The notes beneath the pieces are model-generated. The model saw nothing but the letters and a program-made list of their open reading frames with translations. It did not search any database and had not been told where the DNA came from. 64,000 nt of DNA, from positions 4,158 through 68,157 of the IMG/VR virus record IMGVR_UViG_3300036859_000312. The stretch is one strand, 5' to 3'. A program made the position numbers and the translations under genes. The stretch is from a virus. This document shows, piece after piece, positions 3,000-19,643 of this stretch. Each line of letters starts with the position of its first letter. Positions within the stretch are counted from its first letter, which is position 1.

Positions 3000-3516
3000 C
3001 GATGTCGTGGCCGGTGTCCTGGCCCGCCTGCTGCTCGACAAGCCCAACAGCCAGGATGAGCATTCCACCCCGCATCTGCATGAACTGTGGATCGAACATC
3101 TGGGCGACATGGACGACCGTGACATTGTCGCCGCGTGTCACGCTCTGCTCGATGACCCTCAGGCCCGGTTCCCGACGGTCGGCCAGTTCCGTGACGAAAC
3201 CCAAATCCAGTCCCGGGATCGGATCCGCAGGGCTACGCCTCCCGACGCAGGCCCGTTCGTGTGTGTCACATGCGCCGGTCTACGGTTCGTGTTCATCGAG
3301 ACTCCGGGTTATCCGTGGACGGTCCGTCCCTGCGAATGCAACGAACATCAATATCAGCTGTGGCTGTCGAAGCATTACCGGCGTGACCATCTGTGCAACG
3401 ACTGTTCTGAATCGGTCCGGCGTCGTAACCGTGGCCGGACCCCGGCCCGCAACAACCCTGAACCGGTGCGGGCAGATCCTCAGGTGACAGCAAGGATGTT
3501 TGGGGAGCATTTCTGA
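2989..3516 (+). CDS. Putative helicase loader/inhibitor-like protein with Zn finger
   Basis: W..HL.D...FPTVGQF motif and CxxC...CxC; follows the rep-like gene. Confidence 0.5.
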   Translation: MATDDVVAGVLARLLLDKPNSQDEHSTPHLHELWIEHLGDMDDRDIVAACHALLDDPQARFPTVGQFRDETQIQSRDRIRRATPPDAGPFVCVTCAGLRFVFIETPGYPWTVRPCECNEHQYQLWLSKHYRRDHLCNDCSESVRRRNRGRTPARNNPEPVRADPQVTARMFGEHF

Positions 3517-3587
3517 TGGGCGCGGATGTGGCGTCCGGCACGCCCTCCAAAGGCGTCGCTCTGGGGGTTCGAGTCCCTCCGCCCATG
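3516..3587 (+). tRNA. tRNA-Trp(CCA)-like element with aberrant D arm
   Basis: Acceptor ATGGGCG/CGCCCAT; anticodon arm ACGCC-CTCCAAA-GGCGT; T arm GGGGG-TTCGAGT-CCCTC; G discriminator. Confidence 0.65.
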
Positions 3588-3751
3588 CCCGCGGCCCGCC
3601 TGATCGTCGAGTGGCCAGACGGTGGCCGTATCGAACATCCCCTGTCAGCTGAGGGTCGGACGGTCGGCGGGAAGACGCCGTGCCAGTATGTGGCGGTGCT
3701 AGGTCAGATCGTCACCCCCGGGCGCTGTCGGGCAGCGTGGTGGATCGAACC

Positions 3752-17110: not shown

Positions 17111-17458
17111 ATGGCAAACAGCAGCAGCATCGTCTATCAACCAGCATCCCTCCGGGCAGCCGCCCGGTCTGTGACCGACCGGATCCGTGCCGGCTTCCAA
17201 CCCTGGGTAGGCCCTGACAGGAAACAACGCTGGGCCCGTGTCTCTGGTAGCCGCATCGAAGAGGCACCTATCACCCCACCCGAAGGTGTCGTGCTTGATG
17301 AACTGGCGTTCCTGAACGAACACCAACCAGCTGGCGCGCTGCATTGGCATCGCCTGTTCGGCATGTGGCGTTCCCATCGTCACGACAACGGCAACAACGC
17401 TCACTCCCACTACGTTGGGGGCCCGAGCTTGCAGGCAGGAGAAATCGACACCCCATGA
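17111..17458 (+). CDS. Hypothetical protein
   Basis: AAGGAGG RBS. Confidence 0.55.
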   Translation: MANSSSIVYQPASLRAAARSVTDRIRAGFQPWVGPDRKQRWARVSGSRIEEAPITPPEGVVLDELAFLNEHQPAGALHWHRLFGMWRSHRHDNGNNAHSHYVGGPSLQAGEIDTP

Positions 17459-18060
17459 CATCGATCACCCCAGGCGATGCCGGTACCCGCTGGATCGAAT
17501 ACGAGCCGGTCGGCTCCCTGAAACCCCACCCGGACAACCCCAAGGGTCACGCCCTCGACGCGCTGGTCGCCGCGGTCGAACGATTCGATTACACAGAACC
17601 TGTCCTCGTCTGTGAACGCACCGGCTACATCGCAGCCGGTCATGGCCGCACCGAAGCCATCATGCGTCGTCTTGCAGCGGGCGATCCTCCGCCCGATGGA
17701 GTGGCCGTCGCCGCGGACACGGGGGAATGGCTTGTCCCTGTGGTGCATGGCTGGTCCAGCACCGACGATGACGAACTGCGCTTCTACCTGTTCGCATCGA
17801 ACCATCTCGGGCCCGCGGGCGGCTGGATAAACGATGTCCTCGCGCCGCTCCTTCAGGATCTCGCCGAGGCCCCGGCCGGTCTGAACGGCACCGGTCTGAC
17901 CAGTGACAGTCTGGACGCCCTGCTCGCCGAGGTCACGCAACCCGACTTTCAACCAGTCGACCCCGCTGATCAGCCCCGCCTAGACCGCAAGTTTCACCTG
18001 GTCTGCAACAACTGCGGCGCTGCGGTTGATCCGGCAGCAGCCGAACGCGTCGAACAGTGA
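17455..18060 (+). CDS. ParB/Srx N-terminal domain protein
   Basis: LKPHPDNPKGH...EPVLV...IAAGHGR; C-terminal CxxC. Confidence 0.8.
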   Translation: MTSITPGDAGTRWIEYEPVGSLKPHPDNPKGHALDALVAAVERFDYTEPVLVCERTGYIAAGHGRTEAIMRRLAAGDPPPDGVAVAADTGEWLVPVVHGWSSTDDDELRFYLFASNHLGPAGGWINDVLAPLLQDLAEAPAGLNGTGLTSDSLDALLAEVTQPDFQPVDPADQPRLDRKFHLVCNNCGAAVDPAAAERVEQ

Positions 18061-18713
18061 CACTGCTGGTGGCGCCGTGTTCCCGCGACGCTGCCCTACA
18101 CGCCACCCGATGGTGGCACTACTCCCGATCCATGCCGCTAGGGCGGGTCATCTGCTACGGGGCCTGGTGGCAAGGCGAATTCAGAGGCGCTGTCGTCTAT
18201 GCCAGAGGCAACAACCGACATTTAGGCAAGCCCTACGGCCTGTCCGACAGCCGGCATGTCGTAGAGCTATGCCGCATCGCCCTGGACGATCACCCCGAGT
18301 TTCCTGTTACCCAGGTCGTCGCCCGAACCCTCAGCCAACTACAACACACCAACTCTGGACTACGGCTCGCCCTATCCTTTGCTGACCCTGAGCACGGCCA
18401 CGACGGTGCCATCTACCGGGCCGGGAACTGGATCTACTTAGGCCGCACAGAGCCCGTCCGTTACTTCTTGCATCGCGGCCGATGGGTGCACCAACGAGAC
18501 GTGACCGGCGCACCGCAGTTCCACAGTCGAGCATCAGGGATCCATCACCCCAATGTCGGCGGCAACCAGTCGCATATAGACATCGCGGCCCTCCCCTTCC
18601 GCGAGGCCTCCCCCAAGCACCGCTACGGCTACCCCTTCGACCGGGCCATGCGCCGCCAGTTGACCCATCTGTCAGTACCGTTCCCCGGGCAACGGTTGAA
18701 GATCGCTGAATGA
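18057..18713 (+). CDS. mom: Mom-family (GNAT) adenine-modification protein, copy 1
   Basis: HYS, ELCRIAL, SFADPEHGHDGAIYRAGNWIYLG, KHRY. Confidence 0.85.
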   Translation: MTLLVAPCSRDAALHATRWWHYSRSMPLGRVICYGAWWQGEFRGAVVYARGNNRHLGKPYGLSDSRHVVELCRIALDDHPEFPVTQVVARTLSQLQHTNSGLRLALSFADPEHGHDGAIYRAGNWIYLGRTEPVRYFLHRGRWVHQRDVTGAPQFHSRASGIHHPNVGGNQSHIDIAALPFREASPKHRYGYPFDRAMRRQLTHLSVPFPGQRLKIAE

Positions 18714-19389
18714 TGGATCAGCTGATCGTGGCCCCCTGTTCGCATGACGCCGCTAAGCACGCGGTGATGAACTGGCACTACAGCCGGGCCATGCCTACCG
18801 GCAAATTCGTGAAGCTAGGCGTTTGGGAAGACTCCCGATTCATCGGGGCAGTGCTATTTGGGCGGGGGCCGGCCCGTCAGCTCGGTAATCCGTTTGGGCC
18901 AGCCCGGTACAGGCCAGTGAGCTGGTCAAGGTTGCCTTAACAACTCACGACAACCCGACCAGCCAAATCGTTGCGAATGCTGTCGGAGTCCTACGAAGAT
19001 CCAACCCAGGGCTCCGGGTTTTGGTGTCGTTCGCTGATGAGGCCCAGGGCCATCATGGGACGCTCTATCAGGCGTTGAACTGGGTCTATACCGGATCGGT
19101 CTCCCAATCAGTGGTGTGTGTCCATGGACACCCAGTGCATAAGAAGAGCTTGTGGCGCCGCTATGGCACAGTCCGTATCGACTGGATACGCCAGAACGTG
19201 GATCCGCATGCGACGTGGGAGATGCAGCCGCCCAAGCATCGCTACGTGTTCCCTCTCGACCGGGCAATGCGTAAGACCGTGACTGCCATGGCATTACCGT
19301 ACCCACGCGGCCGAGGGCTCGAAGGTGAGCCGCTGGTGTCCCACACCAGAGGGGCGGGTTCGATCCCCGCCGGCCGCTCCATCCGTTAG
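18710..19389 (+). CDS. mom: Mom-family protein, copy 2, with a frame break near 18899
   Basis: N-half (HYS...LGNPFG) and C-half (SELVKVAL...SFADEAQGHHGTLYQALNW...KHRY) lie in frames offset by -1. Confidence 0.8.
19307..19381 (+). tRNA. Non-canonical tRNA-Gly(CCC) inside the mom-2 3' end
   Basis: GCGGCCG/CGGCCGC acceptor, U73 and encoded CCA; CTGGT-GTCCCAC-ACCAG; GCGGG-TTCGATC-CCCGC. Confidence 0.8.
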
Positions 19390-19394
19390 CGCGG

Positions 19395-19423
19395 TTGCGG
19401 TTCGGTGTTTCGCCGTGTACTGT
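19395..19423 (+). promoter_or_regulatory. Sigma-A-like promoter of the putative early operon
   Basis: TTGCGG-N17-TACTGT; the -35 lies inside an inverted copy of the 19-bp motif. Confidence 0.55.
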
Positions 19424-19473
19424 CGACGCATAGCCACTCAGGGGAGCCAACGGAGGCCCTTGGGGACAGGCCC

Positions 19474-19493
19474 GCTATTTGAAAAGCGAAGAG
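19474..19493 (+). promoter_or_regulatory. boxA-like antitermination element
   Basis: GCTATTTGAAAAGCGAAGAG resembles rrn/phage boxA; AT-rich island about 50 nt after the promoter. Confidence 0.4.
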
Positions 19494-19643
19494 ACGCAAG
19501 CAAGACGCATCAAGCGCGCGATCACACAAGATCTCGCTGCGTCGCAGATCACACCAGCCGGCAGCGGCCCGATAATGGGACCGCGGGGTGAGCACGAGCC
19601 CCCCAGTGGGGAGTGCATGGGACGATACCTACGACGCAGCATC

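What the first reader, a model, noticed from the sequence alone, without database searches (positions are those of the whole stretch)
17455..19389. ParB + tandem mom + embedded tRNA-Gly: candidate self-contained tRNA-dependent DNA hypermodification system
Seen: the last 27 codons of the second mom-like gene also encode a complete cloverleaf (19307-19381). It keeps the glycine identity elements (G1-C72, C2-G71, G3-C70, C35/C36, U73, encoded CCA) but has lost features typical of translational tRNAs (A8 instead of U8, no A14, G32 able to pair with C38). Established: Mom is a GNAT-fold enzyme that makes N6-carbamoylmethyl-adenine, and staphylococci use non-proteinogenic tRNA-Gly for Fem ligases. 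From memory, to be verified: Mu Mom was recently reported to use charged tRNA-Gly as donor. Inference: the phage encodes a private, ribosome-excluded Gly-tRNA co-substrate inside the enzyme's own mRNA. Excising it would cut the mRNA, linking substrate supply to enzyme level.
Basis: partly seen in the sequence, partly recalled or inferred. Interest (0 to 1): 0.9.

Follow-up and report, generated by a model that had tools for sequence, protein, structure and literature searches.

The report
Mom gene's private glycine tRNA
Right after this phage's DNA-disguising Mom genes lies an odd glycine-tRNA look-alike that recurs beside most related Mom genes, so it is probably the enzyme's own glycine carrier, though nobody has tested this at the bench.

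Summary
The cloverleaf at 19307-19381 is real: Rfam tRNA 43.5 bits against a cut-off of 29. It keeps every bacterial GlyRS determinant but has A8, C14 and G21 in place of the usual tRNA core. ARAGORN misses it at default settings.

The second mom copy is broken by a frameshift near 18896-18906, also present in a second assembly. The ORF over the tRNA is therefore a remnant.

In 99 related Mom loci, 70 carry a tRNA-Gly-like element on mom's strand, starting -5 to +120 nt after the Mom domain. Fourteen more carry a reduced 64-66-nt form. Stems covary strongly. Anticodons are UCC, ACC or CCC, never GCC.

Mu Mom uses Gly-tRNAGly (PMC13219725). Best reading: a phage-encoded, probably non-translational glycine carrier for Mom, charged by host GlyRS. 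Processing, charging and use by Mom are untested.

I found no paper reporting this link. This scan noted the same module before on other DNA.

The parts
17455..18060 (+). ParB-like gene (201 aa). Its ATG overlaps the stop of the upstream ORF, and its stop overlaps the GTG of Mom1.
   Evidence: phrog_620 ParB-like partition protein, 1.3e-22. No Pfam hit at E<=0.1. A relative lies directly upstream of mom in 61 of the 85 loci that have at least 450 nt upstream.
18057..18713 (+). Mom1, the intact Mom-family enzyme (218 aa).
   Evidence: PF25680 at 4.3e-34, profile 2-201 of 202. phrog_1384 at 4.3e-40. The family profile hits PDB 8bv8 at 6.9e-27. The equivalents of Mu H58, Y59, R111, D149 and Y159 are kept; S124 is T.
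18710..18940 (+). Mom2, N-terminal piece. Homology runs to about 18898; the frame then reaches a premature stop at 18938-18940.
   Evidence: PF25680 at 2.4e-13, profile 2-54. Frame comparison.
18896..18906 (.). Site of the -1/+2 frameshift that splits Mom2.
   Evidence: Three-frame translation aligned to Mom1 and relatives. An identical sequence stands in a 67,987-nt Logan contig at depth 24.6, possibly from the same reads.
18889..19389 (+). Mom2, C-terminal piece in the other frame (listed as ORF 19021-19389). Mom homology ends at 19305. The last 27 codons and the TAG stop (19387-19389) run over the tRNA-like element.
   Evidence: PF25680 at 6.1e-22, residues 2-95 matching profile 107-201. 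The position of Mu R111 is K here.
19307..19381 (+). tRNA-Gly-like RNA gene with anticodon CCC, A8, a 5-bp D stem (C14:G21), G32:C38, U73 and encoded CCA.
   Evidence: Rfam tRNA 43.5 bits. Family model R1 86.2 bits, second best of 78 matches. ARAGORN calls it only at a relaxed threshold.

Best explanation
The 75-nt element is a phage gene for a tRNA-Gly-like RNA that belongs to a conserved three-part module: a ParB-like protein, one or two Mom enzymes, and the tRNA-Gly-like RNA.

Proposed mechanism:
1. The RNA is transcribed with the parB-mom operon.
2. Host tRNA-processing enzymes cut it out.
3. Host GlyRS loads it with glycine.
4. Mom1 uses it as glycyl donor to make N6-carbamoylmethyl-adenine in phage DNA, as Mu Mom does with host Gly-tRNAGly.

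Its rebuilt core and free position 34 suggest a carrier kept apart from translation. This resembles the non-proteogenic tRNAGly that staphylococci use for cell-wall synthesis.

Shown: the RNA fold, its selection at the RNA level, its tight linkage to mom, the retained GlyRS determinants, and Mom-family membership.

Inferred: processing, charging, use by Mom and poor use by the ribosome.

In this phage the overlapping ORF is the tail of a frameshifted mom copy. The overlap is therefore probably not translated, and the RNA would serve Mom1 in trans.
For: Chemistry. Mu Mom transfers glycine from Gly-tRNAGly. All three E. coli isoacceptors work, and Gly-tRNAAla does not (PMC13219725, abstract and sections 10 and 14).

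Linkage.
- ARAGORN at default settings made 33 calls in the 101 Mom loci.
- At the Mom-domain end, 42 of 102 150-nt segments were called, against 1 of 281 random segments from the same loci.
- The family model R1 gave 78 matches in 573 kb, all on mom's strand. 70 of 99 loci have a match of at least 26 bits starting -5 to +120 nt after a Mom domain.
- 14 further loci carry a 64-66-nt reduced form.
- L076 has the element between parB and mom.

Selection on the RNA.
- 94.4% of cells are paired, against 38-45% with slid partners. The covariation score is 0.768 against 0.11-0.16, and 19 of 23 pairs change on both sides.
- The mom reading frame enters the element in different phases (0: 32, 1: 26, 2: 5), so no conserved peptide is encoded there.

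Charging kept.
- G1-C72 and C2-G71 are invariant, and C35, C36 and U73 occur in 34 of 34 aligned elements.
- U73 occurs in 64 of 65 distinct elements.
- These are the bacterial GlyRS determinants (PMC10464925, passages).

Decoding relaxed (host control).
- A8 in 49 of 65 elements. Hosts have U8 in 16 of 17 bona fide tRNA-Gly.
- U33 lost in 16 of 48 elements. Hosts have U33 in 16 of 17.
- Anticodons are UCC 28, ACC 14, CCC 6 and GCC 0. Hosts have GCC in 6 of 17 and ACC in 0.
- 17 of 65 elements have anticodon loops of 4, 5, 6 or 8 nt.
- TGC or TGT replaces TTC in the T loop in 25 of 65, as in staphylococcal non-proteogenic tRNAGly (PMC7826273, passages).

Acts in trans. The element is convergent with mom in Phonegingi and Dropshot.

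Co-inheritance. A Mantel test of Mom protein distance against element distance gives r = 0.387, with 0 of 2000 permutations as high. Carriers are spread across the Mom tree.

This window. No promoter- or terminator-like site lies between 16800 and 19490, and the genes overlap start to stop. The element scores 86.2 bits although mom2 is broken.
Against: - A private tRNA is not needed for Mom chemistry. Mu works with host tRNAs (PMC13219725). 10 of the 15 cultured phages with Mom homologues that I examined have no element near mom.
- The window's own copy has a TTC T loop, GG in the D loop, U33, a 7-nt loop and the natural anticodon CCC. It could still read GGG codons.
- A pairable 32:38 also occurs in ordinary tRNA-Gly, as U:A in 10 of 17 host tRNA-Gly and in staphylococcal tRNAGly. 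That trait alone proves nothing.
- The phage also carries a canonical tRNA-Arg at 61.4 bits.
- R1 scores ordinary host tRNA-Gly at about 50-67 bits. It therefore detects tRNA-Gly-likeness and not a special class.
- The loci are relatives, and they are the best 80 of 568 IMG/VR matches plus 21 genome loci. The counts are not independent events.
- No experiment shows processing, charging or use by Mom.
Confidence: 0.7

Rival explanations
1. It is a cis-acting tRNA-like 3' element of the mom transcript. It would serve as a processing site, a stabiliser or an expression brake, and would not be used as an aminoacyl carrier. Cutting at its 5' end would strip mom of its stop codon and limit a toxic enzyme.
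For: The mom ORF overlaps the element in 57 of 63 distinct cases: the stop lies after it in 44 and inside it in 13. Mom's frame is open across the element in 44 of 60 cases, against 50 of 120 for the other two frames. Spacing is mostly 1-13 nt.
Against: The anticodon bases C35 and C36 and the discriminator U73 are invariant or nearly so. A mere processing signal does not need them. The element is on the opposite strand in Appavirus phages. It lies before mom in L076 and L105 and after a stop in 6 of 63 cases. In this window mom2 is already broken upstream. This reading may hold in addition to the carrier role.
Confidence: 0.13
2. It is an ordinary phage tRNA-Gly that supplements translation of GGG codons and lies next to mom by chance or by genome mosaicism.
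For: Phages often carry tRNAs, and this one has a canonical tRNA-Arg. The window's copy has a 7-nt loop, U33, a TTC T loop, encoded CCA and a natural CCC anticodon.
Against: The linkage to mom holds across 84 of 99 loci with GC from 0.51 to 0.79 and hosts from several phyla. A8, C14 and G21 break the conserved U8-A14-A21 core shown in the Rfam consensus. Relatives have A34, G33 or loops of the wrong length.
Confidence: 0.08
3. It is an attachment-site relic: host tRNA-Gly sequence carried by a temperate phage (an attP core or an imprecise excision product).
For: Twelve Propionibacterium freudenreichii phage records match only the 3' half of the element (query 47-98) at unannotated places, as attP cores do.
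Against: The record holds no tyrosine or serine integrase. The cloverleaf is complete, with compensatory changes across relatives. It differs from host tRNA-Gly at core positions. I recall, from no call, that the carrier Appavirus phages are described as lytic (cluster-level reading of PMC7302621; one search shows that paper's cluster EA text only).
Confidence: 0.03

Closest known systems
Bacteriophage Mu Mom with host Gly-tRNAGly (Silva et al., Nat Commun 2026, PMC13219725; PDB 8bv8)
   Same: Same enzyme family: PF25680, and the family profile hits 8bv8 at 6.9e-27. The equivalents of H58, Y59, R111, D149 and Y159 are kept in Mom1. The presumed chemistry is the same: glycyl transfer from tRNAGly to adenine N6 in dsDNA.
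   Different: Mu has no tRNA-like gene after mom and uses host isoacceptors. Mu mom is paired with com, whereas here it is paired with a ParB-like gene. Mu R151 is not conserved in this clade, and S124 is T in Mom1. The paper's main text does not mention ParB, a phage tRNA or gene neighbourhood.
Non-proteogenic tRNAGly of Staphylococcus aureus and S. epidermidis for FmhB/FemA/FemB (PMC7826273)
   Same: Extra Gly isoacceptors that GlyRS still charges but that deviate in the D and T regions and are kept for a non-ribosomal glycyl transferase. TGC or TGT replaces TTC in the T loop there, and in 25 of 65 Mom-linked elements here.
   Different: The staphylococcal tRNAs are chromosomal, serve cell-wall synthesis, and form a lineage reported only in staphylococci. 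They keep U8, as s4U8; here A8 occurs with a 5-bp D stem. The elements here are phage-borne and abut or overlap the enzyme's gene. The window's own copy has TTC. It works like them but is not a member of their lineage.
Phage-encoded translational tRNAs
   Same: A tRNA-shaped gene in a phage genome, passing Rfam's tRNA threshold.
   Different: Non-canonical core (A8, C14, G21). It is fixed next to one enzyme gene. Its relatives have unnatural A34, G33 or anticodon loops of odd length.
Aminoacylatable tRNA-like structures at the 3' ends of plant virus RNAs (recalled, from no call)
   Same: A tRNA mimic placed at the 3' end of a viral message that a host synthetase can charge.
   Different: Those belong to RNA viruses, stay attached to the genome and serve replication or translation. 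Here the virus is a DNA phage, and the element also occurs on the opposite strand from mom, so a free RNA is more likely.

Membership tests
tRNA (Rfam RF00005) | Cloverleaf scoring above the curated gathering score | tested here: met
   43.5 bits against 29.
tRNA (Rfam RF00005) | Conserved core U8, A14, A21 | tested here: not met
   A8, C14 and G21, read against the Rfam consensus line. 14:21 forms a covarying pair (CG 18, UA 7 of 34) across relatives.
Bacterial GlyRS substrate (tRNA-Gly identity) | G1-C72, C2-G71, C35, C36, U73; purine 4 with pyrimidine 69 preferred (PMC10464925) | tested here: met
   All are present in the window's element, including G4-C69. They are invariant or nearly so in the family. 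The determinants are taken from passages of PMC10464925.
Bacterial GlyRS substrate (tRNA-Gly identity) | Actual glycylation | not testable with these tools
   Needs a charging assay.
Mom family (PF25680) | Full-length domain match | tested here: met
   Mom1 matches at 4.3e-34 over profile 2-201 of 202. Mom2 matches only as two pieces.
Mom family (PF25680) | Residues essential in Mu: R111, S124, R151 (PMC13219725) | tested here: inconclusive
   In Mom1, R111 is R, S124 is T and R151 is E. In Mom2, R111 is K. R151 is not kept in any of the clade members I aligned. Identity to Mu is 21-27%, so the columns are uncertain.
Staphylococcal non-proteogenic tRNAGly | Weak EF-Tu and ribosome binding | not testable with these tools
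   Needs binding assays.
Staphylococcal non-proteogenic tRNAGly | TGC or TGT in the T loop; lineage confined to staphylococci | tested here: not met
   The window has TTCGATC. 25 of 65 relatives have TGC or TGT. The hosts here are not staphylococci.
ParB/Srx-like N-terminal domain proteins | Profile match to the ParB-like domain | tested here: inconclusive
   phrog_620 at 1.3e-22, and the N-terminal part of phrog_498. No Pfam family at E<=0.1.
attP core in a tRNA gene | An integrase in the phage | tested here: not met
   No match to PF00589 or PF00239 in the 68-kb record, which is about 90% complete.

The most novel reading that the evidence does not exclude
A large clade of Mom enzymes has co-evolved with a private glycyl carrier that the ribosome does not use. 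The carrier has a rebuilt tRNA core (A8, 5-bp D stem, closed anticodon loop) and ranges down to 64-nt mini-forms. Its gene is usually written over the end of mom, so that cutting the RNA out removes mom's stop codon and balances enzyme against co-substrate. In this phage the carrier outlived the mom copy it came with and now serves the other copy in trans.
Probability: 0.3. Interest if true: 0.9.

Novelty: new variant of a known kind. Interest (0 to 1): 0.85.

Why it matters
Mom's use of Gly-tRNAGly was established only in 2026, and that work describes the donor as a scavenged host resource.

A co-substrate RNA gene attached to most genes of a Mom clade would be the second known class of tRNA reserved for a non-ribosomal reaction, after the staphylococcal class. 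It would be the first such class in viruses and the first for DNA modification.

It offers natural enzyme-tRNA pairs for asking how Mom recognises tRNA. It also offers minimal GlyRS substrates.

It corrects annotation. The elements are missed or unannotated in cultured phages such as Shade and Sicarius2, and the mom ORF tails are probably artefactual.

Those phages, together with Dropshot and Salinibacter phage B2_17, make the idea directly testable.

Tried and rejected
- Megablast of the region against phages found nothing.
- A single-protein scan of viral contigs confirmed no relative. I then built alignment A1 and scanned with it.
- attP reading: rejected for lack of an integrase and because of covariation.
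- Programmed frameshift in mom2: not favoured. Seven loci with tandem moms have both copies continuous, and by my reading of the letters the site is not a slippery heptamer.
- Sequencing error as the cause of the frameshift: a Logan contig of run X1 is identical over 18000-19600, but it may come from the same reads.
- Expression: no RNA holder was listed for this stretch, so nothing can be said about transcription or processing.
- I first took 32:38 pairing as proof of non-translation. I dropped that after host tRNA-Gly showed U32:A38 in 10 of 17.
- R1 as a class-specific detector: rejected, because it scores host tRNA-Gly at about 50-67 bits.
- Literature: searches, and passages of PMC13219725, its 2023 preprint, PMC7824862, PMC12801897 and PMC7302621, gave no report of a mom-linked phage tRNA. 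Supplements were closed and may hold one.
- I did not use structure prediction, complex prediction, the protein atlas or the metagenome-contig scan.
Full report
**What is in the window**

The window is part of a 68,157-bp IMG/VR virus record, estimated about 90% complete. Its only listed sequencing-run holder is a soil metagenome.

Four ORFs on the + strand are chained by overlapping stops and starts:
- an unassigned ORF, 17111-17458;
- a ParB-like gene, 17455-18060;
- Mom1, 18057-18713;
- a second mom copy starting at 18710.

The ParB-like protein matches phrog_620 at 1.3e-22 but no Pfam family at E<=0.1. Mom1 is a full-length member of PF25680 at 4.3e-34. A profile of its relatives hits the Mu Mom structure 8bv8 at 6.9e-27.

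No promoter-like or terminator-like site lies between 16800 and 19490. The simplest reading is a single transcript.

**The second mom copy is broken**

Its N-terminal 63 residues are in the frame of 18710. The rest is in the frame that is open from 18889. The switch lies within 18896-18906.

An independent Logan assembly of run X1 gives a 67,987-nt contig at depth 24.6. It is identical over 18000-19600, but it may rest on the same reads.

Seven related loci carry two continuous mom copies in tandem. The tandem layout is therefore normal, and the break is particular to this genome. Mom2 also has K where Mu has the essential R111.

**The cloverleaf**

Rfam's tRNA model matches 19307-19378 at 43.5 bits against a cut-off of 29. 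The phage's canonical tRNA-Arg scores 61.4.

The element has G1-C72, C2-G71, G3-C70, G4-C69, anticodon CCC, U73 and encoded CCA. It also has A8, C14 and G21 where the Rfam consensus has U8, A14 and A21, and G32 opposite C38.

ARAGORN misses it at default settings and calls it tRNA-Gly(ccc) at a threshold relaxed to 95%.

The Mom domain of the overlapping ORF ends at residue 95, one base before the tRNA starts. The overlap is a run-on tail and not part of the enzyme. Because mom2 is frameshifted about 400 nt upstream, the tail is probably not translated here at all.

I aligned 37 relatives of Mom1. With that alignment I fetched the best 80 of 568 confirmed IMG/VR loci and 21 loci from bacterial genomes and MAGs.

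- ARAGORN at default settings made 33 calls in these 101 loci.
- In 150-nt segments at the Mom-domain end, 42 of 102 were called at the relaxed threshold. In random segments of the same loci, 1 of 281 was called.
- A covariance model (R1) built from 34 distinct called elements found 78 matches in 573 kb, all on mom's strand.
- 70 of 99 loci have a match of at least 26 bits starting -5 to +120 nt after a Mom domain, mostly +1 to +13 nt.
- Only three matches lay elsewhere: the window's tRNA-Arg and two others.
- Fourteen further loci hold a 64-66-nt form. It has a 7-bp GCG... acceptor stem, U73-CCA, an NCC hairpin and a reduced D arm.
- L076 has the element between parB and mom, and L105 has it just before mom.
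- A ParB-like gene lies directly upstream of mom in 61 of the 85 loci with enough upstream sequence.

**Selection is on the RNA**

On the MAFFT alignment, 94.4% of cells pair, against 38-45% when partners are slid. The covariation score is 0.768 against 0.11-0.16. 19 of 23 pairs change on both sides.

Mom's frame enters the element in phase 0 (32 cases), phase 1 (26) or phase 2 (5). Its stop lies after the element in 44 cases, inside it in 13 and before it in 6, of 63 distinct cases. No conserved peptide is therefore encoded there.

Mom's frame is open across the element more often than the other two frames (44 of 60 against 50 of 120). Relatedness and a conserved TGA in one phase may explain part of this.

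Mom and element distances correlate (Mantel r = 0.387; 0 of 2000 permutations as high). Carriers are spread over the Mom tree, with non-carriers in a few nested clades. The fewest presence/absence changes is 6, on a quick tree with an uncertain root.

**What kind of tRNA**

The bacterial GlyRS determinants are G1C72, C2G71, C35, C36 and U73, with purine 4 and pyrimidine 69 preferred (PMC10464925, passages). All are invariant or nearly so in the family.

Positions that matter for decoding are relaxed.

| Trait | Mom-linked elements | Host tRNA-Gly, 17 distinct from five host genomes |
|---|---|---|
| Position 8 | A8 in 49 of 65 | U8 in 16 of 17 |
| Position 14 | C or U pairing with 21 in 25 of 34 | A14 in 17 of 17 |
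| Position 33 | non-U in 16 of 48 | U33 in 16 of 17 |
| Anticodon | UCC 28, ACC 14, CCC 6, GCC 0 | GCC 6, CCC 6, UCC 5 |
| Anticodon loop | 4, 5, 6 or 8 nt in 17 of 65 | not tallied |

The T loop reads TGC or TGT in place of TTC in 25 of 65 elements. This is the same change reported for the staphylococcal non-proteogenic tRNAGly, which bind EF-Tu and ribosomes poorly (PMC7826273, passages).

One caveat. A pairable 32:38 is not special to this family, because hosts have U32:A38 in 10 of 17 tRNA-Gly. What differs here is that the pair is C:G, G:C or A:U, and that it covaries.

A second caveat. The window's own copy is among the more canonical members: TTC T loop, GG in the D loop, U33 and anticodon CCC.

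**Cultured phages**

The element is present in 5 of the 15 records I examined:
- Microbacterium phages Phonegingi and Dropshot. It is annotated tRNA-Gly and is convergent with mom.
- Arthrobacter phages Sicarius2 and Shade. It is unannotated and overlaps the end of the Mom CDS, scoring 72.9 and 74.4 bits.
- Salinibacter phage B2_17. It is annotated tRNA-Gly, 33 nt after the mom homologue.

It is absent within the flanks searched in Mu, phiEf11, VSiP, Geobacillus PK3.6, SerPounce, DSL-LC03, Stockyards, Stickynote, ICP1 and Ohno789. The trait therefore marks the clade near this Mom and not the whole family.

**Mechanism**

Mu Mom takes glycine from Gly-tRNAGly, accepts all three host isoacceptors and rejects Gly-tRNAAla (PMC13219725, abstract and sections 10 and 14).

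The most economical reading is that these phages bring their own glycyl carrier for Mom. Host GlyRS would charge it, since the record has no GlyRS and no CCA-adding enzyme. The rebuilt core suggests that the carrier is kept away from EF-Tu and the ribosome.

The convergent and upstream arrangements argue for a trans-acting RNA. A purely cis-acting mRNA element fits them poorly.

Where mom's ORF overlaps the element, cutting the RNA out would remove mom's stop codon. That may add a regulatory layer, but it is inference.

The attP reading is disfavoured, because the record has no integrase.

**Novelty**

Six literature searches and the passages I read gave no report of a mom-linked phage tRNA. 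Supplements were closed.

Earlier notes of this scan describe the same module on other DNA. They agree with my reading but are not independent evidence. I reached the reading before that look-up.

**Verdict**

- Observation: confirmed, with the correction that mom2 is frameshifted.
- Novelty: new variant of a known kind.
- Interest: 0.85.
- Confidence in the carrier reading: 0.7.

Noticed in passing
window 18896-18906: The second mom copy carries a -1/+2 frameshift, which is also present in a second assembly. It has K at the position of Mu's essential R111. It looks like a decaying paralogue, while the tRNA-like gene behind it is intact.
   Followed up: partly
L004:2586-2657 (Arthrobacter phage Sicarius2) and L108:2101-2172 (Arthrobacter phage Shade): Strong matches to the Mom-linked tRNA-Gly-like model (72.9 and 74.4 bits) overlap the 3' end of the annotated Mom CDS. 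They are not annotated as tRNA in these records.
   Followed up: partly
L021, L025, L038-L040, L061, L063, L064, L067, L080, L086, L092, L097, L099 (just after the Mom domain): A reduced 64-66-nt form with a 7-bp acceptor stem, U73 plus encoded CCA, an NCC hairpin and almost no D arm. These may be minimal GlyRS substrates.
   Followed up: partly
L076:2917-2989 and L105:2870-2943: Here the tRNA-Gly-like element lies directly before mom. In L076 it sits between the ParB-like gene and mom.
   Followed up: partly
L104:5653-5726: A second tRNA-Gly-like match (44.6 bits, ACC type) lies about 2.2 kb downstream of mom in a Planctomycetaceae MAG contig.
   Followed up: no
window 3516-3589: ARAGORN calls a tRNA-Trp here, but it does not reach Rfam's tRNA gathering score in the whole-window scan, and the family model does not hit it.
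   Followed up: no
G003:C67:1177-3613 (locus L113): At least six tRNA-like matches lie within about 2.5 kb in a Planctomycetota MAG contig, including one odd Gly(CCC) call with C8. This may be a tRNA array.
   Followed up: no
window 19336-19387 against Propionibacterium freudenreichii phages: Twelve P. freudenreichii phage records match only the 3' half of the element at unannotated places near 21 kb. These are probably their attP cores in a host tRNA-Gly.
   Followed up: no
Together with mom2, this makes two interrupted genes in one record.
   Followed up: no
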